DNA of 32,000 nt from Cupriavidus necator (GTDB taxonomy: Bacteria > Pseudomonadota > Gammaproteobacteria > Burkholderiales > Burkholderiaceae), in the NCBI RefSeq assembly GCF_016127575.1, contig NZ_CP066019.1, forward strand, positions 1,650,001 to 1,682,000, read 5' to 3'. The stretch's first letter is position 1. Each line of letters starts with the position of its first letter. The position numbers and the translations under genes were made by a program. A model generated the notes under the pieces. The model was not told where the DNA came from and did not search any database. It saw nothing but the letters and a program-made list of their open reading frames with translations. Below, piece after piece: positions 1,596 to 23,979 of the stretch.

Positions 1596-3044
1596 ATGCT
1601 GAACCTCCAGGACTCCTCGCTGCTGCGGCAGCAGTGCTATATCGACGGCCGCTGGGTCGACGGCGAGCGCCGCATCGACGTCACCAACCCGGCCACCGGC
1701 GAGCGCGTGGGACAGGTCCCGCAACTGGGCGCCGATGAAACCCGCCAGGCCATCGAAGCCGCCAACCGCGCGCTGCCGGCATGGCGCGCCCGCACCGCCA
1801 AGGAGCGCTCGGCGCTGCTGCGCAAATGGTTCGAACTGATCATGGCCAACCAGGAAGATCTGGCGCGCATCATGACCGCCGAACAGGGCAAGCCGATCGC
1901 CGAAGCGCGCGGCGAAATCGCCTACGCGGCCTCGTTTATCGAATGGTTTGCCGAGGAAGGCAAGCGCGTCTATGGCGACACCATCCCGGCGCCGGTCAGC
2001 AACCAGCGCATAGTCGTGACCAAGGAGCCGGTGGGGGTATGCGCAGCCATCACGCCGTGGAACTTCCCCGCCGCCATGATCACGCGCAAGGCCGGCCCGG
2101 CCCTGGCGGTAGGTTGCACCATGGTGCTCAAGCCGGCATCGCAAACCCCGCTGACAGCGCTGGCGCTGGTGGCCCTGGCCGAGCGCGCGGGCATTCCGGC
2201 CGGGGTGTTGTCGGTGGTGACCGGCTCGGCCGGCGCCATCGGCGGCGAGATGAGCAGCAACCCGCTGGTGCGCAAGCTCACCTTCACCGGATCGACCGAG
2301 GTTGGCCGCGTGCTGATGGCCCAGACCGCGTCGACGATCAAGAAGGTGTCGATGGAGCTGGGCGGCAATGCGCCCTTTATCGTGTTCGACGATGCCGACC
2401 TGGACGCGGCGGTTGAAGGCGCGATCGTGTCCAAGTACCGCAATGCCGGGCAGACCTGCGTCTGCGCCAACCGCATCTACGTGCAGACGGGCGTGTACGA
2501 GGCGTTTGCGCAGAAGCTGGTGGCGGCAGTAGCGGCCCTGAAGGTCGGCAACGGCATGGAAGATGGCGTGCGCATCGGCCCGCTGATCGACGACAAGGCC
2601 GTGGCCAAGGTGGAAGAGCATATCGCCGACGCGCTCGGCAAGGGCGCGCGCCTGCTGCAGGGCGGCCAGCGCCATGCGCTGGGGCATTCTTTCTTCCAGC
2701 CGACCGTACTGGCCGACGTCGGCGCCGGCATGCTGGTCGCGCGCGAGGAAACCTTCGGCCCGCTGGCACCGCTGTTCCGCTTCGAAACCGAGGATGACGT
2801 CGTCGCCATGGCCAACGACACCGAGTTTGGCCTCGCCAGCTACTTCTATGCCCGCGACCTGGGCCGGGTCTGGCGCGTCTCCGAACGCCTGGAATACGGC
2901 ATGGTGGGCGTCAATACCGGCCTGATCTCCAACGAGGTGGCGCCGTTCGGCGGCGTCAAGCAGTCTGGCGTGGGCCGCGAGGGCTCGCACTACGGCATCG
3001 AGGATTACCTGGTCATCAAGTACACCTGCATGGCCGGCATCTGA
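1596..3044 (+). CDS. gabD: NAD(P)+-dependent succinate-semialdehyde dehydrogenase
   Basis: The product is full-length aldehyde dehydrogenase fold. It has the GabD-type N-terminus (LLRQQCYIDGRWVD), the catalytic region ELGGNAPFIVFDDADLD, the Cys motif GQTCVCANR and the C-terminal EGSHYGIEDYL. Start at ATG 1596 (MLNLQD) gives about 482 aa, the typical GabD length. Confidence 0.9.
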   Translation: MLNLQDSSLLRQQCYIDGRWVDGERRIDVTNPATGERVGQVPQLGADETRQAIEAANRALPAWRARTAKERSALLRKWFELIMANQEDLARIMTAEQGKPIAEARGEIAYAASFIEWFAEEGKRVYGDTIPAPVSNQRIVVTKEPVGVCAAITPWNFPAAMITRKAGPALAVGCTMVLKPASQTPLTALALVALAERAGIPAGVLSVVTGSAGAIGGEMSSNPLVRKLTFTGSTEVGRVLMAQTASTIKKVSMELGGNAPFIVFDDADLDAAVEGAIVSKYRNAGQTCVCANRIYVQTGVYEAFAQKLVAAVAALKVGNGMEDGVRIGPLIDDKAVAKVEEHIADALGKGARLLQGGQRHALGHSFFQPTVLADVGAGMLVAREETFGPLAPLFRFETEDDVVAMANDTEFGLASYFYARDLGRVWRVSERLEYGMVGVNTGLISNEVAPFGGVKQSGVGREGSHYGIEDYLVIKYTCMAGI

Positions 3045-3054
3045 TTGCCGCGAC

Positions 3055-3897
3055 TCAGTACGCCGTGTCCGCGCACACGGCGTGCCGGGGCTCGGGGCAG
3101 CGCCCGCCGTGCCGGCAGGTGTCGCGAAAGCGCGCGATCCGGTCATGGACACGCTGCATCTGCTCCAGCTGATAGCTGGCGCGCGCAGCGCTGTAACTGG
3201 CGCCGAACTCATACAGGGCGCCAGCCGCGGCGCGGGATAGTCCTTCCAATGCCTGCGCCAGCTCCCGCCCTTCCACGCTGCGGTGCCGGCGCAGGCGCCA
3301 GGACAAGGCCTCCTGGCCCTGCGCAAGCAGGCTCTGCTCAAGGTAGCCAAGCTGCTCGGCAACGGCCTGCGCGCCATGCAGCGCCGACAGGTAGGCGCAC
3401 ACCACCGCCAGGCGCTGGTTCATCTCCCCGCCGCGGCCCAGCAGTTCGCGGGCGCAGGTGCGCAAGGTATCCGCGTCAAACGCGTTGACTTCGTCGGTGG
3501 CTTCCTGTGCATAGGCGGCCAGCGGCAGCACCGTGACTGCCAGGCCCGGCGGCAGCACGCTGGTGAAACGGCTGGCGATCGCGTGCTGCACGGTGCAGTC
3601 CAGTTCGCAGCAGGTCGGCACAGCGGCATCGACATAGAATTCCAGCGCCGGCGGCCGCCCGTGGTCCATCGACACCACGGCGCGCGCAGGCGGGTGCCCG
3701 GCCATCGCAAGCACCTCGAGGCCGGCCTCGACACAGCGCTGCTCATCGGGCTCCGCCCCCAGTGCCTGGACAATATCCTGCATCTGCAGCGTGCCAGAGA
3801 GTTCCATGCGGGTTGGCCCGGGCGGGTGGTCCCCCCTGCGGCCGCGGTCGAGCGCCATCCGCTTCCATTCGACTTGCGTCATCGCATTGCCCGTCAT
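3055..3897 (-). CDS. Hypothetical 280-aa protein (unrecognised family) occupying the flhC position downstream of an flhD-like gene
   Basis: ATG at 3897 has a strong GGAGG 4 nt upstream. It lies 22 nt downstream of the FlhD-like stop on the same strand. Codon usage is GC3-rich. The N-terminal half looks alpha/beta and the C-terminal half is Ala/Leu/Gln/Arg-rich helical. The C-terminal Cys/His patch is DTCRHGGRCPEPRHAVC. I see no similarity to FlhC. Confidence 0.6.
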   Translation of the reverse strand: MTGNAMTQVEWKRMALDRGRRGDHPPGPTRMELSGTLQMQDIVQALGAEPDEQRCVEAGLEVLAMAGHPPARAVVSMDHGRPPALEFYVDAAVPTCCELDCTVQHAIASRFTSVLPPGLAVTVLPLAAYAQEATDEVNAFDADTLRTCARELLGRGGEMNQRLAVVCAYLSALHGAQAVAEQLGYLEQSLLAQGQEALSWRLRRHRSVEGRELAQALEGLSRAAAGALYEFGASYSAARASYQLEQMQRVHDRIARFRDTCRHGGRCPEPRHAVCADTAY

Positions 3898-3919
3898 ACA
3901 GCCTCCGATTTTGGTTCCA

Positions 3920-4273
3920 CTACCCGCGCTGCGCGGCCATCACGATGGCCGCGTGCATGTTCTGCAGGGCATGCAGCGGCTCGGCGCCGGTCAGCGCGGC
4001 CACCAGCATGCTGTCTTCCAGCCTGAAACGGCACAGCACCAGGTTGGAGCGCGCCAGTGCCACCATCTGCTGCGGCGTGAGCGCGGCCAGCACACGGCCC
4101 ACTTTGCGCTCGATGCCAAGCCGGAACAGGGCCTCGGGCTCGTTCTCGCGCATCAGCCGCTGCACCAGCAGCAGGTAGGAGAGGTTCAGGTCCGTGATTT
4201 CCCGCAGGCTCTCGCCGACCAGGTCGCTGGCCGTCTCTTCAGCCGCGGTGCCGGCCGGTGTTGCATGTTCCAT
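3920..4273 (-). CDS. FlhD-family transcriptional activator paralog (117 aa; alternative start at 4303)
   Basis: By-eye alignment to E. coli FlhD (recalled from memory): DLNLSYLLLVQRL vs DINLSYLLLAQRL, ALFRLGI vs AMFRLGI, LAALTPQQMVALA vs LAALTLPQMVKLA, LVLCRFRL vs LVCHFRF. ATG 4273 is preceded by GAGGA. An upstream in-frame ATG at 4303 forms an ATGA overlap with the fnr stop. Confidence 0.75.
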   Translation of the reverse strand: MEHATPAGTAAEETASDLVGESLREITDLNLSYLLLVQRLMRENEPEALFRLGIERKVGRVLAALTPQQMVALARSNLVLCRFRLEDSMLVAALTGAEPLHALQNMHAAIVMAAQRG

Positions 4274-4299
4274 TCGGTCCTCGCGCTGGCCGGGCTTGG

Positions 4300-5133
4300 T
4301 CATTCGGCTGCCACAGCCTGGCCACCGGCCGTGCGCGGTGCAAGCCGGCGGGCATCGTGCGGGCCGCGCCGGGGCACCTGCCGATCGCACGCAGGCGCGT
4401 GCGCGGAGATCATCGGGCGCTCGGCGATGGCCCGCAAGGCGGGCTTGTCGAGCAGCGAGATGGTGCGGTGCCTCACCCGGATCAGCCCGCAGTCCGCCAG
4501 CCGCGAGAACTGCCGGCTGACTGTTTCCAGCGTCAGGCCGATATAGCTGCCGATTTCCTCCCGGCTCATGCGCAGCACGAACTCCGAGGACGAGAAGCCG
4601 CGCGCCGCAAAGCCTTCAGCCATCCACAGCAGGAAGGTCACCAGCCGCTCTTCGGCGGTCATCAGCGCCAGCATGGTCTGCAGCGCGCGTGCGCGCTGCG
4701 CCTGTCCGCCGAGCGCCAGGAACAGCTGGTTGGCAAGCTCCGGCATGCCGGCGGCGGCGCCGCGCAGCGCGTCCATGCCGAGCATGCACAGCTTGGTGTC
4801 CTCCAGCGCGGTGGCGTAGGACGCATAGTGCGGATGCGCCAGGCTGTCCAGCCCGACCAGGTCGCCGGGGAAGTGGAAGCCGACCACTTGCGTGCGGCCG
4901 TCTTCCGTGGTCACGTGGGTCTTGACTGTGCCGACGCGGATTGCGTAGAGCGAGGTCACGGGGTCGCCCAGCAGGTACAGGCACTGGCCCTTGCGCAGGC
5001 GCACCGTGCGGTGGAAGCCCCGGGCGCCGCCCGGCAAGCCCCGGGCGCCTCCCAGGCAGAAGCGGGCCAGTTGGCAATCTGCGCTGCACGGCATGCCGTC
5101 GCACGGCAGGTGGCATTCGTCTAACTGTGTCAT
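4300..5133 (-). CDS. fnr: FNR-type (Crp/Fnr family) oxygen-sensing transcriptional regulator
   Basis: The N-terminal Cys cluster is CHLPCDGMPCSADCQLARFC, with a central Cys (TKLCMLG) at the FNR Cys122-equivalent position. The cNMP-like barrel shows SLYAIRVGTVKT and GFHFPGDLVGLD. The HTH carries the E--SR recognition motif (GLTLETVSRQF). ATG at 5133 is preceded by AGAGG. The longer ORF to 5445 has a junk N-terminus. Confidence 0.85.
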   Translation of the reverse strand: MTQLDECHLPCDGMPCSADCQLARFCLGGARGLPGGARGFHRTVRLRKGQCLYLLGDPVTSLYAIRVGTVKTHVTTEDGRTQVVGFHFPGDLVGLDSLAHPHYASYATALEDTKLCMLGMDALRGAAAGMPELANQLFLALGGQAQRARALQTMLALMTAEERLVTFLLWMAEGFAARGFSSSEFVLRMSREEIGSYIGLTLETVSRQFSRLADCGLIRVRHRTISLLDKPALRAIAERPMISAHAPACDRQVPRRGPHDARRLAPRTAGGQAVAAE

Positions 5134-5375
5134 TGGCGCCTCTGGATGGAAGAGCTGAAAGCCCTTGTGCAACCATTCTATGGAGCCAGTTTCCCCAGAC
5201 AATCCGCACATTCTGATTTGCAGTACAGAAGCTTCTGATCCGGACCTGCGCTGCCGGGGCCACCGGCATCCCCGGCCATTGGCCCTGCCAGGCTGCTTGC
5301 GGGGTATCCTTGCTACAAGACCAGCACCGGATGCGCTGGCGGGCCACGCCGGCAGGACGCCGTTCAGGACATGCC
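5134..5375. promoter_or_regulatory. Divergent promoter region between fnr operon and hybrid kinase gene
   Basis: This 242-bp non-coding gap lies between divergent starts. It contains TTCTG-N10-CAGAA (5211-5230) and a second TTCTGAT at 5233-5239. No canonical FNR box (TTGAT-N4-ATCAA) was found by eye. Confidence 0.35.
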
Positions 5376-7370
5376 ATGACAAGACCCCCCGAGGACCCGC
5401 AGCAACCCGCCGGAAGCGTACCTCGTCCCGACGCTGGCGAGCCATCGGGCGGGCGTTCGCAAGAGATCCGGGCCGACCTGCCCGATGTGCCTTACCAGAC
5501 CCTGGTGGACTCCGTGCAGGACTACGCCATCTTCACGCTCGACGTCGGCGGCCATGTCTCCAGCTGGAACAAGGGCGCGGCGCGCATCAAGGGCTATGCC
5601 CGCGAGGAGATCCTGGGCAAGCATTTCTCGCAGTTCTACACGCCGGATGCGATCGCCCGGAGTTGGCCGCAAGCCGAACTGAAGGCCGCGGCCGAACAGG
5701 GCCGGTTCGAGGACGAGGGGTGGCGCGTGCGCAAGGACGGCAGCCGCTTCTGGGCCAATGTCGTCATCACCGCCCTGAAGGACGCCGAGGGCCGGCTGAT
5801 CGGCTTCGCCAAGGTCACGCGGGACATGACCGAGCGGCGCCGCGCCGCCGAGGCCCTGCACCAGAGCGAAGAAACCCTGCGGCTGCTGGTGGAGGGGGTC
5901 AAGGATTACGCGATCTTCATGCTCGATCCCGGCGGCCATATCGTCAGCTGGAATTCCGGTGCCTCTTATATCAAGGGCTACCGCCGCGACGAGATCATCG
6001 GCCGTCATTTCTCGGTGTTCTATCCGCAGGAGGATGTTGCCGCTGGCAAGCCGTCACGGCACCTGGCACTGGCGCAGCGCGTCGGGCGCGTGGAAGACGA
6101 AGGCTGGCGCGTGCGCAAGGATGGGTCGCTGTTCTGGGCCAATGTCACCCTGACAGCGGTATACGACGAGTCACGCACGCTGCGCGGCTTTGCCAAGGTG
6201 ACGCGGGACATGAGCGAGCGCCGCCGCCGCGAAGAGCTGGAACGCTCCAGCCAGCGCATGAATGAGTTCCTGGCCACCCTTTCGCATGAACTGCGCAATC
6301 CGCTGGCGCCGGTGCACAGCGCGCTCGCGGCGATGCGGCTGGCGCCGGAGGATGCGGTGCTGGCAAACCGGAGCCTGGCCATGATCGAGCGCCAGGTGAC
6401 CCACCTGAGCCGGTTGGTGGACGACCTGCTCGACATCGGGCGCATCACCTCCGGCCGGATCGAGCTGCGCATGGAGCCGGTCGAGTTCAACGAGATCATC
6501 GCGCTCGGCGTCGAGGCAGCGCAGCCGGCGCTGGATGCCAAGTCGCAGTGCGTCGAAGTGCGGACCCATGCCGGCTCGATCCCAATGCGTGCCGACAAGA
6601 CGCGGCTGGTGCAGGTCATGCAGAACCTGGTGCTCAATGCATCGAAATTCTCGCCGCCCGGCTCGTCGGTGACGATCGCCACCACCATCCAGAACCGCAC
6701 ACTGCAGGTCCAGGTAATGGACCAGGGCTGTGGCATCGGGCCCCAGGCCATCGACGAGATCTTCAACCTGTTCATGCAGGAAAGCCGTCCGGGCACCGAC
6801 TTGCATGGCGGGCTGGGCATCGGCCTGTCGCTGTGCCGGTCACTGGTTGAGCTGCATGGCGGCACCATCTCTGCCGCCAGTGCCGGGGCGGGACAAGGCA
6901 GCACCTTCACGCTGCGGCTGCCGCTGACGGCCTCGCACAAGGAGGACCCCCGGCCAGGAGCCGCACTGCCGGCCCAGGGTCCGGTCGCACCCGAGTTGCA
7001 GGCGCAGCGCATCCTGCTGGTCGACGACAACCGCGACGCCGCCGACAGCCTGGCCATGCTGCTCGAGATATGCGGCCACGAGGTGACCATTGCCTACGAC
7101 GGCGCCGAGGCCCTGCATGTGGCGCCCCGCTGCCGCCCGCATATCGCGCTGATCGACCTGGCCATGCCCGGCATGGACGGCTTCGAAGTGGTGCGCGCCA
7201 TGCGCCTCGTGGCCGGCACCGAGCTGACGCGCTTCGTGGCGCTGACCGGCTTCGCCCAGCCGGCGGACCGGCAGCGTACCGAGGCCGCCGGCTTCGACGC
7301 ACACCTGGTCAAGCCGGTGGAGCTGGAAACGCTGTTCGGCACCATCGCCCGGCTGCGCCCGCCGGAATGA
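5376..7370 (+). CDS. Hybrid sensor histidine kinase: PAS-PAS-HisKA-HATPase-receiver
   Basis: Two near-identical PAS/PAC units are present (DYAIF.LD.GGH..SWN ... EGWRVRKDGS.FWANV ... GFAKVTRDM.ERRR). Other domains: H-box LATLSHELRNPLAP, N/G boxes (LNASKFSP, DQGCGIG, GGLGIGLSL), and a C-terminal receiver (ILLVDDNRDAADSL ... IALIDLAMPGMDGFE ... K). ATG 5376 is preceded by AGGA. Confidence 0.9.
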   Translation: MTRPPEDPQQPAGSVPRPDAGEPSGGRSQEIRADLPDVPYQTLVDSVQDYAIFTLDVGGHVSSWNKGAARIKGYAREEILGKHFSQFYTPDAIARSWPQAELKAAAEQGRFEDEGWRVRKDGSRFWANVVITALKDAEGRLIGFAKVTRDMTERRRAAEALHQSEETLRLLVEGVKDYAIFMLDPGGHIVSWNSGASYIKGYRRDEIIGRHFSVFYPQEDVAAGKPSRHLALAQRVGRVEDEGWRVRKDGSLFWANVTLTAVYDESRTLRGFAKVTRDMSERRRREELERSSQRMNEFLATLSHELRNPLAPVHSALAAMRLAPEDAVLANRSLAMIERQVTHLSRLVDDLLDIGRITSGRIELRMEPVEFNEIIALGVEAAQPALDAKSQCVEVRTHAGSIPMRADKTRLVQVMQNLVLNASKFSPPGSSVTIATTIQNRTLQVQVMDQGCGIGPQAIDEIFNLFMQESRPGTDLHGGLGIGLSLCRSLVELHGGTISAASAGAGQGSTFTLRLPLTASHKEDPRPGAALPAQGPVAPELQAQRILLVDDNRDAADSLAMLLEICGHEVTIAYDGAEALHVAPRCRPHIALIDLAMPGMDGFEVVRAMRLVAGTELTRFVALTGFAQPADRQRTEAAGFDAHLVKPVELETLFGTIARLRPPE

Positions 7371-7479: not shown

Positions 7480-8460
7480 ATGCAGGGTTGGATCAGGCGT
7501 GCAGCCGCGGGGCTGGTATTTGCGTTCGCGGCCACGGCCGCCGGTACCGCGCTGGCGGACTATCCCGACAAGCCGGTGCGGCTGGTGGTGCCCTTTCCGC
7601 CCGGCGGCGCCACCGACCTGCTGGCGCGCGAGATCGGCAACGCACTGTCGGCGCGGCTGCACCAGCCGGTGGTGATCGACAACCGGCCCGGCGCCGGCGG
7701 CAACCTGGCGGCCATCGCGGTGGCGCGGGCCCCGGCCGACGGCTATACGCTGCTGTTCGGCACCTTCGGCTCGCTGGCGGTCAACAAAAGCCTCTATGAC
7801 AAGCCTGGCTACGATCCGCTGAAGGACTTCGCGCCGGTGGCTTCGGTCGCCTACCTGCCCAACGTGCTGGTGGTGCATCCCAGCGTGCCGGCGCGCACCG
7901 TGCAGGAGCTGCTGGCGCTGGCGCGCAAGGAGCCGGGCAAGCTGACCTATGGCTCGTTCGGCAACGGCTCGTCGTCGCACCTGGCGGGCGAGCTCTTCAC
8001 CCACCTGGCGGCTGTCAATATCACGCACATTCCGTACAAGGGCAGCGCCGCGTCGATGACCGACCTGATCGGCGGGCGCATCACCATGATGTTCGACAGC
8101 GTCTCGACCGCGCTGCCGTATATCCGCGACAACCGCGTGCGCGCGCTGGCGGTGACGACGCAGAAACCCTCTGACCAGCTCCCAGGCGTGCCCACGCTGG
8201 CCGCCGCCGGCGTGCCCGGCTACGAGCTGACCGCGTGGTTTGGCGTGGCCGCGCCGGCCGGCACGCCCAAGGCAGTGATCGACCGCCTCAACGGCGAGAT
8301 CGTGGCGGCGCTGAAGCAGCCTGACCTGGCCGCCAGGCTGGCCAGCCAGGGCACCGTGCCCTTCCCCGCCACGCCGGCGCAGTTCGGCAGCTATATCCGC
8401 GCGCAGTTCGAGAAGTGGGACAGCCTGATCAAGTCGGCCAACATCAAGCTGGACAACTGA
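7480..8460 (+). CDS. Bug-family (TctC-like) tripartite tricarboxylate transporter periplasmic binding protein, orphan
   Basis: AAAGGAGA Shine-Dalgarno precedes ATG 7480. The signal peptide ends ...TALA/DYPDKPVRLVVPFPPGG.TD, the Bug-family hallmark. Length is 326 aa. No tctA or tctB genes are adjacent. Confidence 0.9.
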   Translation: MQGWIRRAAAGLVFAFAATAAGTALADYPDKPVRLVVPFPPGGATDLLAREIGNALSARLHQPVVIDNRPGAGGNLAAIAVARAPADGYTLLFGTFGSLAVNKSLYDKPGYDPLKDFAPVASVAYLPNVLVVHPSVPARTVQELLALARKEPGKLTYGSFGNGSSSHLAGELFTHLAAVNITHIPYKGSAASMTDLIGGRITMMFDSVSTALPYIRDNRVRALAVTTQKPSDQLPGVPTLAAAGVPGYELTAWFGVAAPAGTPKAVIDRLNGEIVAALKQPDLAARLASQGTVPFPATPAQFGSYIRAQFEKWDSLIKSANIKLDN

Positions 8461-9301
8461 TAGCCTGAGCCCAGGCCGTGTCCGGCGCGCCGAAGCGCCA
8501 CGACAGCCGGCGCGCCGCCTGCCGCACCAGCGCGGCAGTGGCGCCCGCGGTGCTGCTGTCAAAGCTGCCGCTCGAGCCCATCACGGCGATCACCAGCGCC
8601 AGGCTGCCGGTGTGGTCGAATACCGGCGCCGCCAGCGTGTCGATGCCCGGCACCGGGTGGCTCAGCGCATTGTCGAGCCGGGCCGCGCGCACCTGCGCCA
8701 GGCGCCCGGCGTAGGCCGGCGCCAGCTTGCCGCCGGGTTCAAGCACTTCGGCCGCGGCAGCGCCGGCCATGCGCAAATCGTCCTTTTCCAGCAAGCCCGC
8801 CAGCACGTTGGCTGGCAGGTACGCAGCGGCGGTGCGGCCAATCGCGGTATGGACCAGCGACAGCACCGTGCCCACGCGCAGGCTTACGTGCTGGGGCCGC
8901 GCCGATTCCTCCAGCCGGACCACCGTGGGCCCCAGCGGCCCCAGCACTGCCATGGCCACGCTCAGGCCGGTGGCGCCGGCCAGCTCGATCACCTCCGGTT
9001 CCGCCTCACGCGTCGGCGACAGCCGCTGCAGCGCGATCAGCCCCAGTTCCAGTCCCAGCGGTCCGCACAGGTAGTTGCCCGCGGCATCGCGCGCCAGCAG
9101 GCCGGTCTTCTGCAGGCTGACCAGATGCGGGAACGCCTTGGCCGGCGGCATGCCCGCGGCCAGCGCCAGGTCGCGCAGCGCCAGCGGCCGGCCGGCAGCC
9201 ACCAGCGCCACCAGCAGCTGGCCGGTGCTGTCCAGCGACTGGATGCCGCGCTGCGGCTTGCCGCCTTCCAGGTCTTGCTGGGCTTCGGTCGCGCTGCTCA
9301 T
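8444..9301 (-). CDS. IclR family transcriptional regulator (downstream copy of a tandem pair)
   Basis: The N-terminal wHTH is GIQSLDSTGQLLVALVAAGRPLALRDLALAAGMPPAKAFPHLVSLQKTGLLARD, followed by an IclR effector domain. ATG 9299-9301 overlaps the upstream gene stop (ATGA). The 3' end overlaps the convergent Bug gene by 17 nt. Confidence 0.85.
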   Translation of the reverse strand: MSSATEAQQDLEGGKPQRGIQSLDSTGQLLVALVAAGRPLALRDLALAAGMPPAKAFPHLVSLQKTGLLARDAAGNYLCGPLGLELGLIALQRLSPTREAEPEVIELAGATGLSVAMAVLGPLGPTVVRLEESARPQHVSLRVGTVLSLVHTAIGRTAAAYLPANVLAGLLEKDDLRMAGAAAAEVLEPGGKLAPAYAGRLAQVRAARLDNALSHPVPGIDTLAAPVFDHTGSLALVIAVMGSSGSFDSSTAGATAALVRQAARRLSWRFGAPDTAWAQAISCPA

Positions 9302-10131
9302 GCCAGGCGCCCCTCTTCATCGCGCAGCGCGGCGCCGATGTCCGCCGCCGCGGCCAGCAGGGCCTGCGCCGCAGCGCCGCGCCAGTCCACCTCGATGGCA
9401 CCGGTCGATCCCACCAGCGTCAGCACCAGCCGCAGCACGCCAGCGGCGTCCAGCACCGGCACGCTGAGGCTGCTGACAGCCGGGCTGGGCGTGTCGATGC
9501 TGCGCTCGATGCCGCGCGCTCGGATTTCTCCCAGGCTGGCGCTGAAGGCGGCCAGGTCGGACTCGGCCGCGCCCGGCTGCTGTGCGCGCCACAGCGGCTG
9601 CCACAGTGCCGGCGGCTGGAAGGCACAGAACACGCGCCCGGTGGCCGTGGCGGCCAGTGCCATCACCGTGCCCACGTGCAGGTTGACATGCAGCGGCGCG
9701 CTGGCCGGCACATAGCGCACGATGGTCGGGCCCTGCGGCCCGGCAATGCTGATTGCCACGCTGAATCCGGACGACTGCGCCAGCGCATCCACCCGGGGCT
9801 GCGCGGCGCGCCAGGCGGCGTCCTGCTCCAGGTGCAGCATGCCCAGCTGCAGCGACAGCGGCCCGGGCTCGTAGCGGCCGGAGAGGTGGTCGCGCTTGAT
9901 CAGACCCAGCCGCGTCAGGCTGACCAGGTAGGCATGCGCCTGGGCCGGCGCCAGCTGCGCCGCCTCGGCCAGCGCGGCCAGCGGCATTGGCGCGCGCGCG
10001 ACCGCCAGCGCCACCAGCAGGCGCCCGCCCACCTCCACGCTCTGGATGCCGCGCTGCGCCTTGTCGGCACGCGCAGCGGGCTCGTCCGCCTGCGTTCCTG
10101 CTTCCCCAGCCTTGCGCCTGGCCATTGCCAT
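9298..10131 (-). CDS. IclR family transcriptional regulator (upstream copy of a tandem pair)
   Basis: The wHTH is GIQSVEVGGRLLVALAVARAPMPLAALAEAAQLAPAQAHAYLVSLTRLGLIKRD, followed by an IclR effector domain. It is a paralog of the downstream gene. The start is ambiguous between ATG 10131 and 10125; the ORF start at 10212 is unlikely. Confidence 0.8.
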   Translation of the reverse strand: MAMARRKAGEAGTQADEPAARADKAQRGIQSVEVGGRLLVALAVARAPMPLAALAEAAQLAPAQAHAYLVSLTRLGLIKRDHLSGRYEPGPLSLQLGMLHLEQDAAWRAAQPRVDALAQSSGFSVAISIAGPQGPTIVRYVPASAPLHVNLHVGTVMALAATATGRVFCAFQPPALWQPLWRAQQPGAAESDLAAFSASLGEIRARGIERSIDTPSPAVSSLSVPVLDAAGVLRLVLTLVGSTGAIEVDWRGAAAQALLAAAADIGAALRDEEGRLA

Positions 10132-10140
10132 CCTGTGTGA

Positions 10141-10435
10141 TCGGAAAACCCGGATATTAATCGAACGCCTCCCGTTGCCGTGTGCACGGGGGTTTACCCG
10201 AACAAACTCCACCTGCCTCCGATGGCGTTCGCGGCATGCCTCAATTATTTGTCATAGGCTAATCATTTCGCTATTGATTAATTTTTTAACGTTTCCTAAG
10301 ATTGCACTACCCCGTCCGAACACGGCGACCCACGCCGTCAGGCATCCATAGAAACGGGGCGAGACAGCCCGCGGCCAGCGCAACGCAGCCATCGTGCCGG
10401 TGCCGTCTCGCCTCCCCACACAAAGGAAAGACGCC
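10141..10435. promoter_or_regulatory. Divergent iclR / catabolic-operon control region with AT-rich core and inverted ATTAATC repeats
   Basis: This is the only strongly AT-rich stretch in the window (about 10246-10310, e.g. caattatttgtcataggctaatcatttcgctattgattaattttttaacg). ATATTAATCGAAC (10154-10166) is repeated in inverted orientation at 10271-10284 (reverse complement AAATTAATCAATAG), matching 9 of 11 core positions. Confidence 0.4.
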
Positions 10436-11395
10436 ATGTCCAAGGCATTCGCATCGCAGGCCGACCTGGAAGCCAAGCAGGTCACCTTCACCCAACTGTC
10501 AGAGAACGCCTGGGCCTACACCGCCGAAGGCGATCCCAATTCGGGCGTGGTCATCGGCGACGACGGCGTACTGATCGTCGACACCACCGCCACGCCGGCC
10601 ATGGCGCAGGACCTGATCGCCCGCATCCGCACCATCACCGACAAGCCCATCAAGTACGTGGTGCTGTCGCACTACCACGCGGTGCGCGTGCTGGGCGCGT
10701 CGGCCTACTTCGCGGAAGGCGCGCAGCAGGTCATCGCCAGCCGCGGCACCTACGAGATGATCGTCGAGCGCGGCGAGGCCGACATGAAGTCCGAGATCGA
10801 GCGCTTCCCGCGCCTGTTCGCCGGCGTCGAGACCGTGCCCGGCCTGACCTGGCCGACGCTGGTGTTCGAGAAGGAAATCACGCTGTTCCTGGGCAAGCTG
10901 GAAGTGCGCATCGCCCACCTGGGCTCGGGCCATACCAAGGGCGACACCGTGGTCTGGCTGCCGCAGCAGAAGGTGCTGTTCTCCGGCGACCTGGTCGAGT
11001 ACGACGCCGCCTGCTACTGCGGCGACGCCCAGCTGGAAGACTGGCCGGCCACGCTGGACGCGCTGCAGGCACTCAAGCCGGAAAAGCTGGTGCCCGGCCG
11101 CGGCCCCGCGCTGACCACGCCGGAGGAAGTGGACAAGGGTATCGCCTACACCAAGGACTTCGTCACCACGCTGTTCCAGGCCGGCAAGGAAGCCGTGGCC
11201 GAGAAGCTCGACCTGAAGGCCGCGATGGCGCACACCCGGCGCGCGATGGACCCCAAGTTTGGCCAGGTCTTTATCTACGAGCACTGCCTGCCCTTCGACG
11301 TCTCGCGCGCCTATGACGAGGCCAGCGGCGTCCGCCACCCGCGCATCTGGACGGCCCAGCGCGACAAGGAAATGTGGGCCGCACTGCAGGACTGA
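10436..11395 (+). CDS. MBL-fold protein with degenerate metal motif (HYHAVR instead of HxHxDH)
   Basis: AAGGAAAG precedes ATG 10436. The beta-lactamase fold pattern is VVIGDDGVLIVDT ... VVLSHYHAVRVLG ... HLGSGHTKGDTVVWLP ... LFSGDLV. Length is 319 aa. Confidence 0.8.
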   Translation: MSKAFASQADLEAKQVTFTQLSENAWAYTAEGDPNSGVVIGDDGVLIVDTTATPAMAQDLIARIRTITDKPIKYVVLSHYHAVRVLGASAYFAEGAQQVIASRGTYEMIVERGEADMKSEIERFPRLFAGVETVPGLTWPTLVFEKEITLFLGKLEVRIAHLGSGHTKGDTVVWLPQQKVLFSGDLVEYDAACYCGDAQLEDWPATLDALQALKPEKLVPGRGPALTTPEEVDKGIAYTKDFVTTLFQAGKEAVAEKLDLKAAMAHTRRAMDPKFGQVFIYEHCLPFDVSRAYDEASGVRHPRIWTAQRDKEMWAALQD

Positions 11396-11444
11396 CCTCC
11401 AAAAAGAATAAGTCGGGCAACAAGCTATGGATGGAGACACAGGC

Positions 11445-13169
11445 ATGAGCAGCATCGATTACCAGCGGCTGTCGTTCGAGTACCAGCCCTGCGCCGAGCA
11501 ACAGAAAGGGGCCGATCCGGCCGTCCACCCGGTCGTCGTGGTCGGCGCCGGGCCGGTCGGCCTGGCCACCGCCATCGACCTGGCGCAGCGCGGCGTGGCC
11601 GTGGTGCTGGTGGATGACGACTGCACGCTGTCCACCGGATCGCGAGCAATCTGTTTTTCCAAGCGCACGCTGGATATCTTCGACCGGCTTGGCTGCGGCG
11701 AGCGCATGGTCGACAAGGGCGTGCGCTGGCACGTCGGCAAGGTGTTCCTGCGCGACCAGCAGGTCTACAGCTTCGACCTGCTGCCCGAGAGCGGCCACCG
11801 CCGCCCTGCCTTCATCAACCTGCAGCAGTACTACCTCGAAGGCTACCTGCTGGAGCGCGCGCAGGCGCTGCCCAATATCGAGATCCGCTGGCGCAACAGG
11901 GTGGTCGGGCTGGAACAGCGCGGCACGTCCGAGGACGGCGTGATACTGACCATCGAGACGCCTGACGGCAGCTACCCGCTGGCGGCACGCTACGTGGTGG
12001 CCGCCGACGGTTCGCGCAGCCCGATGCGCAAGCTGCTGGGCCTGGACAGCAAGGGCCGCACCTTCCACGACCGCTTCCTGATTGCCGACGTGAAGATGGA
12101 AGCGGATTTCCCGAGCGAGCGCTGGTTCTGGTTCGACCCGCCCTTCCACCCGAACCAGTCGGTGCTGCTGCACCGCCAGCCGGACAACGTCTGGCGCATC
12201 GACTTCCAGCTCGGCTGGGACGCCGACCCGGAGCTGGAGAAAACGCCGGAGCGCGTGATCCCGCGGGTGCAGGCGCTGCTGGGCAAGGACGTGAAGTTCG
12301 AGCTGGAATGGGTCAGCGTCTATACGTTCTCCTGCCTTCGCATGGACAGTTTCCGCCACGGCAATATCCTGTTCGCCGGCGATGCCGCGCATGGCGTGTC
12401 GCCGTTCGGCGCGCGTGGCGCCAACAGCGGCATCCAGGACGCCGAGAACCTGGCCTGGAAGCTGGCCTATGTGCTGCAGGGCCATGCCTGCGACAAGCTG
12501 CTGGACACCTACGCCAGCGAGCGCGAATACGCCGCCGACGAGAACCTGCGCAACTCCACACGTTCCACCGACTTCATCACGCCCAAGAGCGCGGTCAGCC
12601 GCGTGTTCCGCGATGCGGTGCTGACCCTGTCCAGGCGCCATGCGTTTGCGCGCACCCTGGTCAACAGCGGGCGGCTGTCGGTGCCCGCGGTGCTGCAGGA
12701 TTCGCCGCTGAACACCGCTGACGATGCCCAGGACTATGCCTGCAAGCTGGTGCCTGGCGCGGTCTGCTGCGACGCGCCGGTATCCGGCGCGCAGGGCGCG
12801 GGCTGGCTGCTGTCGCACCTGGGCGGGGACTTCACGGTGCTGGTGTTCGGCAGCCCTGACACCATCGATGCAGCCACGCTCGCCGGCCTCGCCGCGCTGA
12901 AAGACAGCGGCGTGCCGCTGCGGCTGGTCTACGTGACCGACGCCGCGCAGCCGGCGGTGACCTGCACCAATGCCACCGTGCTGCGCGACGACGAGGGCCT
13001 GGCCGCCGCGCGCTACGGTGCCACGCCCGGCACCTGCTACCTGGTCCGCCCGGACCAGCATGTCTGCGCCCGCTGGCACCACCCCGACCCGGCCGCGATC
13101 CGCGCCGCGCTGGCGCGTGCCACCGGTGCCGACCTGCGCGCCCCGCAGCCCGGCCGCATGGCCGCCTGA
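11445..13169 (+). CDS. Group A FAD-dependent aromatic-ring monooxygenase (MhpA/PheA-like, with C-terminal thioredoxin-like extension)
   Basis: Motifs: GAGPVGLATAIDLAQRG (GxGxxG), AADGSRSPMRK (DG motif), FAGDAAHGVSPFGARGANSGIQDAENLAWKL (GD motif). Length is about 574 aa. ATG 11445 is preceded by GGAGA; the ATG at 11427 is also possible. Confidence 0.9.
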   Translation: MSSIDYQRLSFEYQPCAEQQKGADPAVHPVVVVGAGPVGLATAIDLAQRGVAVVLVDDDCTLSTGSRAICFSKRTLDIFDRLGCGERMVDKGVRWHVGKVFLRDQQVYSFDLLPESGHRRPAFINLQQYYLEGYLLERAQALPNIEIRWRNRVVGLEQRGTSEDGVILTIETPDGSYPLAARYVVAADGSRSPMRKLLGLDSKGRTFHDRFLIADVKMEADFPSERWFWFDPPFHPNQSVLLHRQPDNVWRIDFQLGWDADPELEKTPERVIPRVQALLGKDVKFELEWVSVYTFSCLRMDSFRHGNILFAGDAAHGVSPFGARGANSGIQDAENLAWKLAYVLQGHACDKLLDTYASEREYAADENLRNSTRSTDFITPKSAVSRVFRDAVLTLSRRHAFARTLVNSGRLSVPAVLQDSPLNTADDAQDYACKLVPGAVCCDAPVSGAQGAGWLLSHLGGDFTVLVFGSPDTIDAATLAGLAALKDSGVPLRLVYVTDAAQPAVTCTNATVLRDDEGLAAARYGATPGTCYLVRPDQHVCARWHHPDPAAIRAALARATGADLRAPQPGRMAA

Positions 13170-13200
13170 GACCGGCCAGACCTGCACCGCGGAGACTCCC

Positions 13201-13425
13201 ATGCCCAATACGCTCAACACCCAACCCAACCTGGCGCGGCCCGACGACTTCTACGAAGCGCTGATCGAGATGCACCGCGACCTCGACGAGGCAAAAAGCC
13301 AGGCCGCCAATGCGCAGCTGATCCTGCTGCTGGCCAACCATATCGGCGACCACGATGTGCTCCTGGCCGCCATGGCCGCCGCGCGCGAAGGCGTGACCGA
13401 AATGCCGGCCACCACGCCAGCCTGA
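13201..13425 (+). CDS. DUF2783-like small protein (74 aa)
   Basis: GGAGA precedes ATG 13201. The sequence NLARPDDFYEALIEMHRDLDEAKSQAANAQLILLLANHIGDHDVL matches my memory of DUF2783, a family usually found next to FAD monooxygenases. Confidence 0.7.
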   Translation: MPNTLNTQPNLARPDDFYEALIEMHRDLDEAKSQAANAQLILLLANHIGDHDVLLAAMAAAREGVTEMPATTPA

Positions 13426-13431
13426 CCTGAC

Positions 13432-13467
13432 ACAGGCGCGGTACCGCCGCGCCTGTCCTGTTCTTTT
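13432..13467 (+). terminator. Rho-independent terminator-like hairpin after the DUF2783 gene
   Basis: A perfect 10-bp stem, ACAGGCGCGG (13432-13441) / CCGCGCCTGT (13447-13456), has a 5-nt loop. It is followed by the T-rich tract CCTGTTCTTTT. It starts 7 nt after the stop codon. Confidence 0.6.
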
Positions 13468-13566
13468 CCCGGCACCATCGCGGGCCAACGCGCGCAAGAC
13501 GCTGCCCACTGGCGGAACCCTCCGGCTGCCCGCCGCCGCAGCCACCACCGTACGGAGACAACGTTC

Positions 13567-14925
13567 ATGAGCCATCCGGTCTCAGGGGATCTTTCGTCCC
13601 TATCCAGCCTGACGTCCCCCACCCTGCCTCCCGCAGCACTGGCTGCGCACGATGAGGATGCGCTCTACCGCAAGGTCTGGCTGCGCATCATCCCGTTCCT
13701 GTTCGTCTGCTACGTGGTGTCGTTCCTGGACCGCATCAACATCGGCTTCGCCCAGTTGCAGATGAAGCAGGACCTGGGCTTCAGCGACGCCATGTACGGC
13801 CTGGGCGCCGCGGTCTTCTACGTCGGCTACGTGCTGTGCGAAGTGCCCAGCAACATGCTGCTGGCGCGCTTTGGCGCACGGCGCACGTTCACGCGCATCA
13901 TGGTGCTGTGGGGCCTGGCCTCGGTGGCGATGATGGGCGTCTCCACCCCGGCGCAGTTCTATACGCTGCGCTTCCTGCTGGGCGTGTTCGAAGCCGGCTT
14001 CTTCCCCGGCATCGTGCTCTACCTGACCTACTGGTTCCCGGCGCGCCGCCGCGCCGCGGTGATGGCGATCTTCTTTGCCGGCGTGGCGGTGGCGGGTGTG
14101 CTGGGCGGGCTGGTGTCCGGCTGGATCATGCGCGACATGGCCGGCGTGCTCGGGCTGCAGGGCTGGAAGTGGATGTTTGCGATCGAGGGCGCGCCCGCGG
14201 TGCTGCTGGGCCTGCTGGCCGCGCGCTGCCTGGTTGATGGCCCGCAGCAGGCCAGCTGGCTGACCGACGGCGAACGTGCCCACCTGGCGCGCGACACGGC
14301 CGCGCAAGCACATGCCGGCGGCCATTCGCTGCACGCGTTGCGGCAGGTTCTGCGCAACCCGCGCGTGTACCTGTTCGCGTTTATCTATTTTTCGCTGACC
14401 TGTGGTTCGCTGGCGCTGAGCTTCTGGATGCCGCTGATGATCCGCGACTTCGGCATCACCGACGTGATGTCGGTCAGCCTGTATTCGGTGGTACCCAATG
14501 CCGTGGGCGCGGTCGGCCTGCTCCTGATCGCGCGCCACTCCGACCGCACCGGCGAGCGCCACCGCCACTTCCTGCTGTGCACGGCAGGCGGCGCGCTGGC
14601 CCTGGCGGCGCTGACCCTGCACCTGCCCAGCCTGGCGCTGATGCTGGCCATCCTGTCGGTGGCCGCGGTGCTGATCTTTGCCGCGCTGCCGGTGTTCTGG
14701 TCGCTGCCGCCCAGCTACCTGCCGGGCGCGGGCACGGCCGCCGGCATCGCCTTCATCAGCAGCATCGGCATCACCAGCGGCATCGTCAGCCCGTGGGTGA
14801 TTGGACAGATCAAGACCCGGACCGGCAGCCTGGACCATGCCCTCTACCTGCTGGCGGCGCTGCTGCTGGCCAGCGGCCTGGCCATGTGGCTGGGTGTGCC
14901 AAGGCAGCCCGCGCGGCCGGCCTGA
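13567..14925 (+). CDS. MFS transporter, anion:cation symporter (ACS) type
   Basis: About 12 TM segments are predicted. The N-terminal signature is SFLDRINIGFAQLQMKQDLGFSDAMYGLGAAVFYVGYVLCEVPSN, followed by RRTFTRIM, typical of the tartrate/phthalate/galactonate-permease ACS family. GGAGA lies upstream of ATG 13567. Confidence 0.9.
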   Translation: MSHPVSGDLSSLSSLTSPTLPPAALAAHDEDALYRKVWLRIIPFLFVCYVVSFLDRINIGFAQLQMKQDLGFSDAMYGLGAAVFYVGYVLCEVPSNMLLARFGARRTFTRIMVLWGLASVAMMGVSTPAQFYTLRFLLGVFEAGFFPGIVLYLTYWFPARRRAAVMAIFFAGVAVAGVLGGLVSGWIMRDMAGVLGLQGWKWMFAIEGAPAVLLGLLAARCLVDGPQQASWLTDGERAHLARDTAAQAHAGGHSLHALRQVLRNPRVYLFAFIYFSLTCGSLALSFWMPLMIRDFGITDVMSVSLYSVVPNAVGAVGLLLIARHSDRTGERHRHFLLCTAGGALALAALTLHLPSLALMLAILSVAAVLIFAALPVFWSLPPSYLPGAGTAAGIAFISSIGITSGIVSPWVIGQIKTRTGSLDHALYLLAALLLASGLAMWLGVPRQPARPA

Positions 14926-20220: not shown

Positions 20221-20462
20221 GCGTCTCCTTCCGCGGCCTTCCCACCGTGCCGGGAACAACACGCGCTGCCAGACAGCGGCAAGAAGCGTACCGGCTGGAC
20301 ACCGCGCCCGCATCGGCCCCATTGCCCTGCGCGTTCTTTCCATCGGCACGGCGCGCGCCGGTAGTTTTTACAAGCAGTAAGGCATCGCGCACATAAGATG
20401 CCGCGGCGCTTGCCCTTGAGGTGCCTTGGCTGGGCGCGCAATTGGAGACTGGCCGGGCGCGC

Positions 20463-20562: not shown

Positions 20563-23979
<3,417 letters not shown>

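What the first reader, a model, noticed from the sequence alone, without database searches (positions are those of the whole stretch)
3055..5133. Non-flagellar FlhD paralog in a compact operon behind an O2-sensing FNR, with no FlhC
Seen in sequence:
- Three same-strand genes with strong ribosome-binding sites are tightly packed.
- The fnr TGA (4300-4302) overlaps an in-frame ATG (4301-4303) of the FlhD-like ORF. Alternatively, a GAGGA-preceded ATG at 4273 leaves a 26-nt gap.
- The next gene starts 22 nt after the FlhD-like stop.
- By my by-eye alignment the 117-aa protein matches E. coli FlhD at roughly 40-45% identity over the core: DLNLSYLLLVQRL, FRLGI, LAALTPQQMV, LVLCRFRL.

Established knowledge: FlhD is known essentially as the partner of FlhC in the FlhD4C2 flagellar master regulator, and the two genes form the flhDC operon.

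What is unusual here:
- There are no flagellar or chemotaxis genes anywhere in the 32 kb.
- The upstream gene is an FNR with a full [4Fe-4S]-type Cys set.
- The flhC slot holds an unrelated 280-aa protein.

Inference: this could be an uncharacterised oxygen-linked regulatory module in which an FlhD-like subunit works with a new partner.
Basis: partly seen in the sequence, partly recalled or inferred. Interest (0 to 1): 0.7.

Follow-up and report, generated by a model that had tools for sequence, protein, structure and literature searches.

The report
Orphan FlhD paralog after flhC loss
Cupriavidus necator H16 carries a second, fast-evolving copy of the flagellar regulator FlhD behind an FNR-type regulator; its own FlhC partner gene, still present in five sister species, has been deleted, so the 280-aa neighbour is an accessory protein and not a substitute for FlhC.

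Summary
On the minus strand lie an FNR-like gene (5133-4300), an FlhD-family gene (4273-3920; Pfam FlhD E=3e-36) and a 280-aa gene (3897-3055), separated by 26 and 22 nt. The 32 kb contain no flagellar genes.

The trio is conserved in 21 other Cupriavidus species. In five of them a true FlhC paralog (Pfam FlhC E=6e-69) sits between flhD2 and the 280-aa gene, translationally coupled to flhD2. Trees and leftover intergenic sequence point to one deletion of flhC2 in the lineage leading to H16.

The 280-aa protein (P280) therefore coexisted with FlhC2. It is not FlhC-like (hhalign probability 0.15%). Its model shows a ferredoxin-like domain plus a HEPN-like helical bundle. Its few distant relatives sit beside phosphorelay regulators.

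Orphan FlhD2 is still under purifying selection (dN/dS 0.42, against 0.10 where flhC2 remains). Canonical flhDC exists elsewhere in related genomes.

The most likely role is a modulatory FlhD subunit acting through the canonical FlhC/FlhD, but this is inferred. A link to oxygen is untested. I rate it a new variant of a known kind, of moderate interest.

The parts
4300..5133 (-). FNR-like CRP/FNR-family regulator (277 aa), first gene of the operon
   Evidence: Pfam cNMP_binding + HTH_Crp_2 + Crp. NCBIfam Fnr 169 bits, below the cut-off of 228. Cys16-x3-Cys20-x5-Cys26 plus a central Cys, and an ETVSR helix. Conserved upstream of flhD2 in 21 other species at 64-94% identity. Disrupted in L009 and L012.
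5175..5202 (-). Sigma-70-like promoter candidate upstream of the FNR-like gene
   Evidence: TTGTCT-16-TAGAAT, the only match in 2800-5600; 0.2 expected in shuffles. This is a consensus match only.
3920..4273 (-). FlhD2: orphan FlhD-family paralog (117 aa; an alternative start at 4303 gives 127 aa)
   Evidence: Pfam FlhD E=3.4e-36 and NCBIfam FlhD 116 bits. 52% identity to canonical Cupriavidus FlhD. Forms a monophyletic FlhD2 clade. dN/dS 0.42, p(<1)=3.5e-9. 37 of 97 columns invariant in 17 orphan species.
3898..3919 (-). 22-nt junction where flhC2 lies in sister species (deletion scar); carries the GGAGG ribosome-binding site of P280
   Evidence: In L013, L014, L015, L018 and L022 a 208-223-aa FlhC paralog fills this position. 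L009, L011 and L012 keep 76-84 nt including the flhC2-P280 intergenic hairpin.
3055..3897 (-). P280: protein of unknown function in a very narrow family, last gene of the operon
   Evidence: No Pfam, NCBIfam, PADLOC or PDB-sequence hit. 36 close homologues, all Cupriavidus. Only 10 hits among 1.84 billion cluster representatives. AF2 model pLDDT 80: N-terminal beta-alpha-beta-beta-alpha-beta domain plus a HEPN-like helical bundle. Not FlhC.
5310..7370 (+). Divergently transcribed PAS-PAS-HisKA-HATPase-REC hybrid histidine kinase (conserved neighbour; membership of the module uncertain)
   Evidence: Pfam domains. Present next to the FNR-like gene in 17 of the 21 other loci (18 of 22 with the window). 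In L013 an EAL-domain gene lies there instead.
3048..3095 (.). Inverted repeat between the convergent aldehyde dehydrogenase and P280 3' ends (possible bidirectional terminator)
   Evidence: Arms of 24 nt, 75% complementary. No T-run terminator was called.

Best explanation
The locus is what remains of a second, lineage-specific flhDC-type regulator operon: fnr-like, flhD2, flhC2, P280.

Origin. The pair arose by duplication of the flagellar master genes flhDC in an ancestor of one Cupriavidus subclade. It evolved much faster than the canonical copy.

Loss. In the branch leading to C. necator H16, and in 16 other sampled species, the flhC2 reading frame was deleted. This left flhD2 22 nt from P280.

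What is shown: the paralogy, the deletion, continued but relaxed purifying selection on FlhD2, and that P280 is not FlhC.

What is inferred:
- FlhD alone does not bind DNA. The orphan FlhD2 therefore most likely works by protein-protein contact with the canonical FlhC and/or FlhD encoded elsewhere in the genome. It would act as an alternative or inhibitory subunit that tunes the flagellar regulon.
- It is expressed together with the FNR-like regulator from a single promoter upstream of that gene.
- P280 is a co-transcribed accessory or modulator protein, not the DNA-binding partner.
For: Conservation and the flhC2 gene:
- The trio is conserved between the same flanking genes in 21 further species.
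- FlhC2 is present in five of them. It scores Pfam FlhC E=6e-69 and 1e-64, keeps the Zn-cysteine set and basic DNA-contact residues, and its start overlaps the flhD2 stop (ATGA) as in canonical flhDC.

Phylogeny and the deletion:
- FlhC2 is sister to canonical Cupriavidus FlhC. FlhD2 is monophyletic. The flhC2-bearing and flhC2-less taxa form two sister branches.
- L009, L011 and L012 retain the flhC2-P280 intergenic hairpin without the ORF.

Canonical copies elsewhere:
- Canonical FlhC is on the same replicon as the trio in C. taiwanensis, C. nantongensis and C. necator A5-1, and canonical FlhD in Cupriavidus sp. TA19; C. necator H850 carries both FlhC and the trio.
- The canonical locus is MCP-DUF4088-flhD-flhC-motA-motB-cheA.

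Selection:
- On independent sister pairs, FlhD2 has dN/dS 0.42 (p<1 = 3.5e-9) without flhC2 against 0.10 with it. The flanking aldehyde dehydrogenase has 0.05-0.08.
- 37 of 97 FlhD2 positions are invariant in the 17 orphan species, including the family signatures NLSY, QRL, LFRLG, RFRL and HAAIV.

Literature:
- FlhD does not bind DNA on its own, FlhC does, and FlhD holds the ring together (PMC3510510).
- An FNR homologue (CydR) controlling flhDC has a precedent in Azotobacter vinelandii (PMC2885672).
Against: - No interaction, expression or phenotype data exist. No paper in the library mentions the locus.
- After about 50% sequence divergence, FlhD2 may no longer fit the canonical FlhC or FlhD.
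- The four-fold relaxation of constraint, and the loss of the FNR DNA-binding domain in two species, also fit slow decay.
- The canonical flhDC of strain H16 itself could not be retrieved with these tools. It is inferred from close relatives and from my own recollection of the H16 genome.
- No FNR box lies near the operon, so oxygen control is unproven.
Confidence: 0.5

Rival explanations
1. One reading: FlhD2 and P280 form a new heteromeric regulator, with P280 replacing FlhC as the partner, under oxygen control by the FNR-like protein.
For: - FlhD2 and P280 co-occur in all 22 genomes and lie 22-28 nt apart in most flhC2-less species.
- Distant P280 relatives always lie within a few genes of a transcription factor, a GerE-type response regulator. 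The family may therefore act on regulators, as YdiV binds FlhD (PMC3510510).
Against: - P280 is already present together with FlhC2 in five species, so it did not replace FlhC.
- It has no FlhC similarity, no recognisable DNA-binding domain and no conserved zinc-cysteine motif.
- Its distant relatives have no FlhD nearby.
Confidence: 0.15
2. The operon is a decaying remnant. After flhC2 was lost, FlhD2 (and perhaps the FNR-like protein and P280) has no function in H16 and persists only because decay is slow.
For: - dN/dS of all three genes is 1.4-4 times higher in the flhC2-less branch, and far above the flanking genes.
- The FNR-like gene is frameshifted in L009 and has lost its HTH in L012. 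P280 is interrupted in L022.
- The trio is far less conserved (51-94% identity) than its flanks (88-98%).
Against: - dN/dS stays significantly below 1 for all three genes: FlhD2 p=3.5e-9, P280 p=2e-54.
- flhD2 is intact in all 17 flhC2-less genomes despite pairwise dS of about 0.36-0.7.
- FlhD family signature residues are invariant.
- Ribosome-binding sites and tight spacing are kept.
Confidence: 0.2
3. The database-annotation reading: this gene is simply the flagellar master regulator FlhD of the organism.
For: NCBIfam's FlhD equivalog model passes its cut-off, and public records name it 'flagellar transcriptional regulator FlhD'.
Against: - It is only 52% identical to the highly conserved canonical Cupriavidus FlhD.
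- Related genomes carry the canonical flhDC-motAB-che locus as well.
- There is no flhC or flagellar gene nearby.
Confidence: 0.05

Closest known systems
FlhD4C2 flagellar master regulator (flhDC operon of Enterobacteria and Burkholderiales)
   Same: - FlhD2 is a full-length FlhD-family protein with the family signatures and the Cys65 equivalent.
- In five sister species it is translationally coupled to an FlhC paralog, exactly as in canonical flhDC.
   Different: - It is a second, fast-evolving copy, 52% identical to the canonical FlhD of the genus.
- It lies behind an FNR-like gene, far from motAB, che and flagellar genes.
- In H16 it has no cognate flhC.
- It carries a 15-25-residue N-terminal extension that is absent from canonical FlhD and from FlhD2 of flhC2-bearing species.
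Non-flagellar FlhDC-family activators of mobile elements (SetCD of SXT/R391, AcaCD of IncA/C plasmids, SgaCD of SGI1)
   Same: They show that FlhDC-type heteromers can be recruited to regulons other than flagella. These papers surfaced.
   Different: - Those are always D+C pairs on conjugative elements and are very remote in sequence.
- Here the pair is a close sister of the host's own flhDC.
- The 32 kb contain no genes for conjugation or integration.
- One partner has been lost.
Anti-FlhD4C2 factors that bind FlhD (YdiV/STM1344, STM1697)
   Same: A possible analogy for P280, or for the EAL-domain gene next to the operon in C. numazuensis: a non-DNA-binding protein that acts on FlhD (PMC3510510).
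   Different: P280 has no EAL domain and no sequence or fold similarity to YdiV. Any interaction is wholly untested.
CydR (Fnr) control of flhDC in Azotobacter vinelandii
   Same: An FNR-family regulator is functionally coupled to an flhDC-type regulator (PMC2885672).
   Different: - There the FNR homologue represses flhDC in trans through a CydR box.
- Here the FNR-like gene is the first gene of the same operon, and no FNR box was found.
HEPN-domain proteins (e.g. AF_0298, PDB 2hsb; HepT toxins)
   Same: The C-terminal half of P280 superposes on HEPN four-helix bundles: TM 0.74 normalised to the target, probability 1.0.
   Different: - Foldseek E-values are weak (0.011-0.3).
- The Rx4-6H catalytic motif is absent; the family-wide conserved residues are W200, R203, H205 and R211.
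- There is no PADLOC or Pfam hit.
- The N-terminal domain is ferredoxin-like, not a minimal nucleotidyltransferase.

Membership tests
FlhD (PF05247) | Significant match to the family profile over its full length | tested here: met
   Pfam E=3.4e-36, residues 21-115 against profile positions 5-99 of 102. NCBIfam equivalog 116 bits, above the cut-off of 90.
FlhD (PF05247) | Encoded in an flhDC operon, immediately upstream of and translationally coupled to flhC | tested here: not met
   No FlhC anywhere in the window by tblastn. The next gene starts 22 nt downstream and is unrelated. The feature is met in five sister species.
FlhD (PF05247) | Genomic association with motility genes (motAB, che, flagellar genes) | tested here: not met
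   None in the 32 kb. The canonical Cupriavidus flhDC is followed by motA-motB-cheA.
FlhD (PF05247) | Forms an FlhD4C2 complex with FlhC and activates class II flagellar promoters | not testable with these tools
   Needs interaction and reporter assays, or multimer modelling.
FlhC (PF05280), as a candidate identity of the 280-aa protein | Profile or profile-profile similarity to FlhC | tested here: not met
   No Pfam or NCBIfam hit at E<=1. hhalign of the P280 alignment against an FlhC alignment gives probability 0.15%.
FlhC (PF05280), as a candidate identity of the 280-aa protein | Conserved Cys4 zinc site (C-x2-C ... C-x2-C) | tested here: not met
   The C-terminal cysteines of the H16 protein are not conserved among homologues. 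FlhC2 of sister species does keep the site.
FNR (O2-sensing [4Fe-4S] CRP/FNR regulators) | cNMP-binding-like domain plus a CRP-type HTH with the E--SR recognition helix | tested here: met
   Pfam domains. ETVSR is present.
FNR (O2-sensing [4Fe-4S] CRP/FNR regulators) | Three N-terminal cysteines (C-x2-C-x5-C) plus one central cysteine as cluster ligands | tested here: inconclusive
   H16 has C-x3-C-x5-C plus the central Cys. Most relatives have CC-x2-C-x5-C. L008 and L021 have Trp in place of the third Cys. Cluster binding itself is not testable here.
FNR (O2-sensing [4Fe-4S] CRP/FNR regulators) | Score above the curated Fnr model cut-off | tested here: not met
   NCBIfam NF008365 scores 169 bits against a cut-off of 228. 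It is FNR-like, not the housekeeping Fnr.
FNR (O2-sensing [4Fe-4S] CRP/FNR regulators) | FNR box (TTGAT-N4-ATCAA) at its own or the neighbouring promoter | tested here: not met
   No match with up to 2 mismatches within 2800-5600. A 2-mismatch box about 245 nt upstream occurs only in four flhC2-bearing species.
HEPN domain (C-terminal half of the 280-aa protein) | Four-helix up-down bundle superposable on solved HEPN domains | tested here: inconclusive
   2hsb gives target-normalised TM 0.74 and probability 1.0, but E=0.011. Two independent models give the same result.
HEPN domain (C-terminal half of the 280-aa protein) | Rx4-6H catalytic motif | tested here: not met
   The conserved segment is W-[RQ]-L-R-x-[HQ], and one relative has Gln for the His.

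The most novel reading that the evidence does not exclude
After losing its cognate FlhC, FlhD2 acquired an FlhC-independent function. It would work together with the ferredoxin-like/HEPN-like protein P280, and perhaps the FNR-like regulator, as a new kind of signalling module. That would make it a natural example of the long-debated FlhC-independent activity of FlhD.
Probability: 0.12. Interest if true: 0.7.

Novelty: new variant of a known kind. Interest (0 to 1): 0.4.

Why it matters
- **A natural experiment.** FlhD is understood only as the non-DNA-binding half of FlhD4C2. Here an FlhD has been kept under selection across at least 17 species after its own FlhC was deleted. This allows a direct test of whether an FlhD can act with a non-cognate FlhC, as a poison subunit, or without FlhC at all.
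- **An annotation trap.** Public pipelines label this gene 'flagellar transcriptional regulator FlhD', and one source labels P280 'nucleotidyltransferase'.
- **Practical relevance.** C. necator H16 is an industrial chassis, and motility regulation affects its resource budget, so a hidden modulator of the flagellar regulon would matter.
- **A new protein family.** P280 defines a very small family without any Pfam model that recurs beside transcription regulators of phosphorelay systems.

Tried and rejected
- **P280 as a divergent FlhC.** Rejected: hhalign probability 0.15%, different fold, no conserved zinc cysteines.
- **P280 as a minimal-nucleotidyltransferase + HEPN toxin or a defence gene.** No GS...DxD motif in the N-domain, no Rx4-6H motif, and no PADLOC hit.
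- **P280 C-domain as an Hpt phosphotransfer domain.** The idea came from the neighbouring hybrid kinase and a conserved His. There is no Pfam Hpt hit, the His is Gln in one relative, and the distant relatives have separate Hpt genes beside them.
- **A conserved P280-kinase pair.** The kinases next to distant P280 relatives are only about 30% identical to the window's kinase, in the catalytic core only.
- **FNR autoregulation.** No FNR box was found near the operon.
- **Mobile-element origin like SetCD/AcaCD.** FlhD2 and FlhC2 branch next to the host's own copies.
- **Ancestral state from genomes lacking the trio.** The C. metallidurans chromid has only canonical flhDC. The only close ALDH orthologue in the plasmid collection (C. 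oxalaticus X32) lies in an unrelated context and was uninformative.
- **Literature.** Searches for the locus, for FlhD paralogs and for likely locus tags found nothing specific.
- **Rfam.** The scan of the window gave no hit.
Full report
**Identity of the window and check of the observation**

The three proteins are exact matches to Cupriavidus necator H16 chromosome 2 entries CAJ96325-7 / QCC04167-9. All three genes lie on the minus strand.

| Gene | Coordinates | Length | Main evidence |
|---|---|---|---|
| FNR-like | 5133-4300 | 277 aa | cNMP_binding + HTH_Crp_2; NCBIfam Fnr 169 bits, cut-off 228 |
| FlhD-family | 4273-3920 | 117 aa (127 aa from the ATG at 4303) | Pfam PF05247 E=3.4e-36; NCBIfam FlhD equivalog 116 bits, cut-off 90 |
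| P280 | 3897-3055 | 280 aa | no Pfam or NCBIfam hit |

- Identity of the FlhD-family protein to E. coli FlhD is 41.7% over 96 aa.
- The FNR-like protein has a Cys16-x3-Cys20-x5-Cys26 cluster, the central Cys and an ETVSR recognition helix.
- Pfam scans of the other 20 main ORFs found no flagellar or chemotaxis gene.

**The 280-aa protein is not FlhC**

- It has 36 close homologues, all in Cupriavidus.
- A profile search of 1.84 billion cluster representatives found only 10 proteins.
- There is no hit in Pfam, NCBIfam, PADLOC or PDB sequences.
- Profile-profile comparison with an FlhC alignment gives 0.15% probability.
- Its C-terminal cysteines are not conserved.

Two AlphaFold2 models (pLDDT 75 and 80) agree on the architecture.
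- Residues 29-125 form an N-terminal beta-alpha-beta-beta-alpha-beta domain, which is ferredoxin-like.
- Residues about 140-263 form a helical bundle. Its best Foldseek matches are HEPN domains: 2hsb with target-normalised TM 0.74, probability 1.0, E=0.011-0.039.
- The HEPN Rx4-6H motif is absent. The residues conserved across the whole family are E158, R162, Y169, W200, R203, H205 and R211.

**The decisive comparative result**

A scan of one genome per species with the P280 alignment returned 21 Cupriavidus loci. In all of them the order is:

TctC <- (PAS hybrid kinase <-) | FNR-like -> FlhD2 -> P280 | <- aldehyde dehydrogenase

- The flanking genes are 88-98% identical to those of H16. The trio is only 51-94% identical.
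- In five species there is about 730 bp more between flhD2 and P280: C. numazuensis (L013), Cupriavidus sp. IDO (L014), C. pinatubonensis (L015), C. laharis (L018) and UYMMa02A (L022).
- That extra DNA encodes a bona fide FlhC: Pfam PF05280 E=6e-69 and 1e-64.
- This FlhC2 is 59-63% identical to canonical C. metallidurans FlhC. It keeps the Cys4 zinc site and the basic residues that PMC3510510 shows are needed for DNA binding.
- Its ATG overlaps the flhD2 stop (ATGA), as in canonical flhDC.

The operon in those species is therefore fnr-like, flhD2, flhC2, P280. P280 coexists with an FlhC and does not stand in for one.

**Direction of change**

- Neighbour-joining trees place FlhC2 as sister to the tight canonical Cupriavidus FlhC clade, whose members are 86-97% identical to the C. 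metallidurans FlhC.
- FlhD2 is monophyletic. The flhC2-bearing and flhC2-less taxa form two sister branches.
- In L009, L011 and L012 the flhD2-P280 spacer is 76-84 nt. It still contains the GCCCGG-CAG-CCGGGC hairpin that lies between flhC2 and P280 in the flhC2-bearing species. In H16 the spacer has shrunk to 22 nt.

A single deletion of the flhC2 reading frame is the simplest account. The trees are distance trees rooted on E. coli, so a rooted species tree is still needed.

**Canonical flhDC elsewhere**

- C. metallidurans carries flhD-flhC-motA-motB.
- Ten further Cupriavidus loci show MCP-DUF4088-flhD-flhC-motA-motB-cheA.
For canonical FlhC this holds in C. taiwanensis (2,827,766 bp), C. 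nantongensis HB4B5 (2,513,395 bp) and C. necator A5-1 (4,685,690 bp). For canonical FlhD it holds in Cupriavidus sp. TA19 (2,784,676 bp).
- C. necator H850, C. pinatubonensis and UYMMa02A also carry canonical copies.
- Strain H16's own canonical flhDC could not be pulled out with the tools available. I recall it from the published genome, but that is not shown here.

**Selection**

dN/dS (Nei-Gojobori) on phylogenetically independent sister pairs:

| Gene | flhC2-less species | flhC2-bearing species |
|---|---|---|
| FlhD2 | 0.42 (Fisher p for <1 = 3.5e-9) | 0.10 |
| P280 | 0.28 | 0.11 |
| FNR-like | 0.30 | 0.21 |
| Aldehyde dehydrogenase (flank) | 0.08 | 0.05 |
| TctC (flank) | 0.10 | 0.02 |

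- All-pairs medians show the same pattern.
- flhD2 is intact in all 17 flhC2-less genomes.
- 37 of 97 aligned FlhD2 positions are invariant there, including NLSY, QRL, LFRLG, RFRL and HAAIV.
- The FNR-like gene is frameshifted in L009 and has lost its HTH in L012. P280 is interrupted in L022.

The module is constrained, but clearly less so since flhC2 was lost.

**Mechanism**

Established knowledge (PMC3510510): FlhD does not bind DNA on its own, FlhC does, and FlhD maintains the ring of the complex. An orphan FlhD2 under selection therefore needs a protein partner.

- The obvious candidates are the canonical FlhC and/or FlhD. With them FlhD2 could form mixed complexes, either activating or inhibitory.
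- Co-transcription with the FNR-like gene from the candidate promoter at 5202-5175 is suggested by the 26-nt and 22-nt spacings. It is not shown.
- There is no FNR box near the operon, so oxygen control is only a hypothesis. CydR (Fnr) control of flhDC in Azotobacter is a precedent for such a link (PMC2885672).
- P280's distant relatives lie within a few genes of GerE-type response regulators, Hpt proteins and hybrid kinases in at least four unrelated contexts. None has an FlhD nearby. This suggests a general accessory role beside transcription regulators, perhaps as a modulator. It does not point to a specific FlhD partnership.

**Comparison with what is known, and novelty**

- FlhD2 is a member of the FlhD family by sequence. 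It fails the contextual features of the flagellar master regulator: there is no adjacent flhC and no motility neighbourhood.
- Extra flhDC pairs outside flagellar loci exist in other Burkholderiaceae, for example on Caballeronia grimmiae plasmid p1. FlhDC-type pairs of mobile elements (SetCD, AcaCD) regulate conjugation.
- What is unusual here is an FlhD kept without its cognate FlhC, the fixed linkage to an FNR-like gene, and the uncharacterised P280 family.
- No paper in the searchable library describes any of this.

**Verdict**

- I rate this a new variant of a known kind, with moderate interest (0.4).
Its central inference, a new partner in the FlhC slot, is contradicted by the sister-species operons.
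- The remaining open question is what an orphan FlhD does. It is real and testable.

Noticed in passing
L013:2326-3561 (minus strand): In C. numazuensis the PAS hybrid kinase next to the FNR-like gene is replaced by a 411-aa protein with an EAL domain (Pfam E=2.6e-12). tblastn also finds no PAS kinase in L015, L018 and L022, but their neighbour gene was not examined. EAL-like proteins (YdiV, STM1697) are known anti-FlhD4C2 factors, so this neighbour may be functionally linked to FlhD2C2.
   Followed up: partly
L023:5001-5792, L026:268-993, L027:6001-6789, L031:6001-6735: Distant homologues of the 280-aa protein (23-29% identity) from unidentified high-GC bacteria always lie within a few genes of GerE-type response regulators. 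They are usually accompanied by an Hpt protein and SBP_bac_3/PAS hybrid kinases. One sits beside a chaperone-usher fimbrial cluster and another beside a REC-EAL protein.
   Followed up: partly
L009:4761-5479 and L012:4889-5515: The FNR-like gene is frameshifted inside its recognition helix in 'Ralstonia pickettii' RAL3. It has lost the whole HTH region in C. necator A5-1. flhD2 and P280 stay intact in both, so the other two genes do not strictly depend on this regulator. Sequencing error is not excluded for RAL3.
   Followed up: partly
L009, L011, L012, L013, L015, L018 and L022, about 30-60 nt upstream of the P280 start: A conserved small hairpin (GCCCGG-CAG-CCGGGC) lies just upstream of P280. 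It is present both in species with flhC2 and in some without it, and is absent from H16. It could be a processing or attenuation signal between flhC2 and P280.
   Followed up: no
L004-L008 and L021 (FlhD2 column aligned to E. coli FlhD Cys65): In the C. alkaliphilus / C. nantongensis / C. neocaledonicus group the conserved Cys of LVLCRFRL is replaced by Tyr (LMLYRFRL). In E. coli this Cys forms the inter-subunit disulfide of the FlhD dimer. In UYMMa02A it is Ser.
   Followed up: no
WIN, L002-L012, L016, L017 and L019-L021 (N-terminus of FlhD2): FlhD2 of flhC2-less species carries a poorly conserved N-terminal extension of about 15-30 residues. It is absent from FlhD2 of flhC2-bearing species and from canonical FlhD.
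   Followed up: no
L045:4977-5845 (Caballeronia grimmiae plasmid p1): A second flhD-flhC pair lies in a non-flagellar context (porin, hypothetical proteins, a PAS protein, a two-component system) on a 916-kb plasmid. The FlhD query hit two places in this record. Extra flhDC paralog pairs are therefore not unique to Cupriavidus.
   Followed up: partly
window 20398-31858 (+ strand): A GlgE - TreS/amylase - GlgB - GlgX-type alpha-glucan/trehalose gene cluster fills the last 11 kb. The listed ORFs overlap (27288/27360 and 29330/29627), so some start codons are probably further downstream.
   Followed up: no
window 8444-10212 (minus strand): Two tandem IclR-family regulator genes overlap by 4 nt. 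They lie upstream of a divergent MBL-fold / FAD-monooxygenase / MFS cluster (10394-14925).
   Followed up: no
L044 (C. oxalaticus X32 plasmid unnamed1, 790586-810061): A 94%-identical orthologue of the aldehyde dehydrogenase lies in a completely different context, without the trio, the TctC gene or the kinase. The region is therefore rearranged, or the dehydrogenase gene is duplicated, in that strain.
   Followed up: partly
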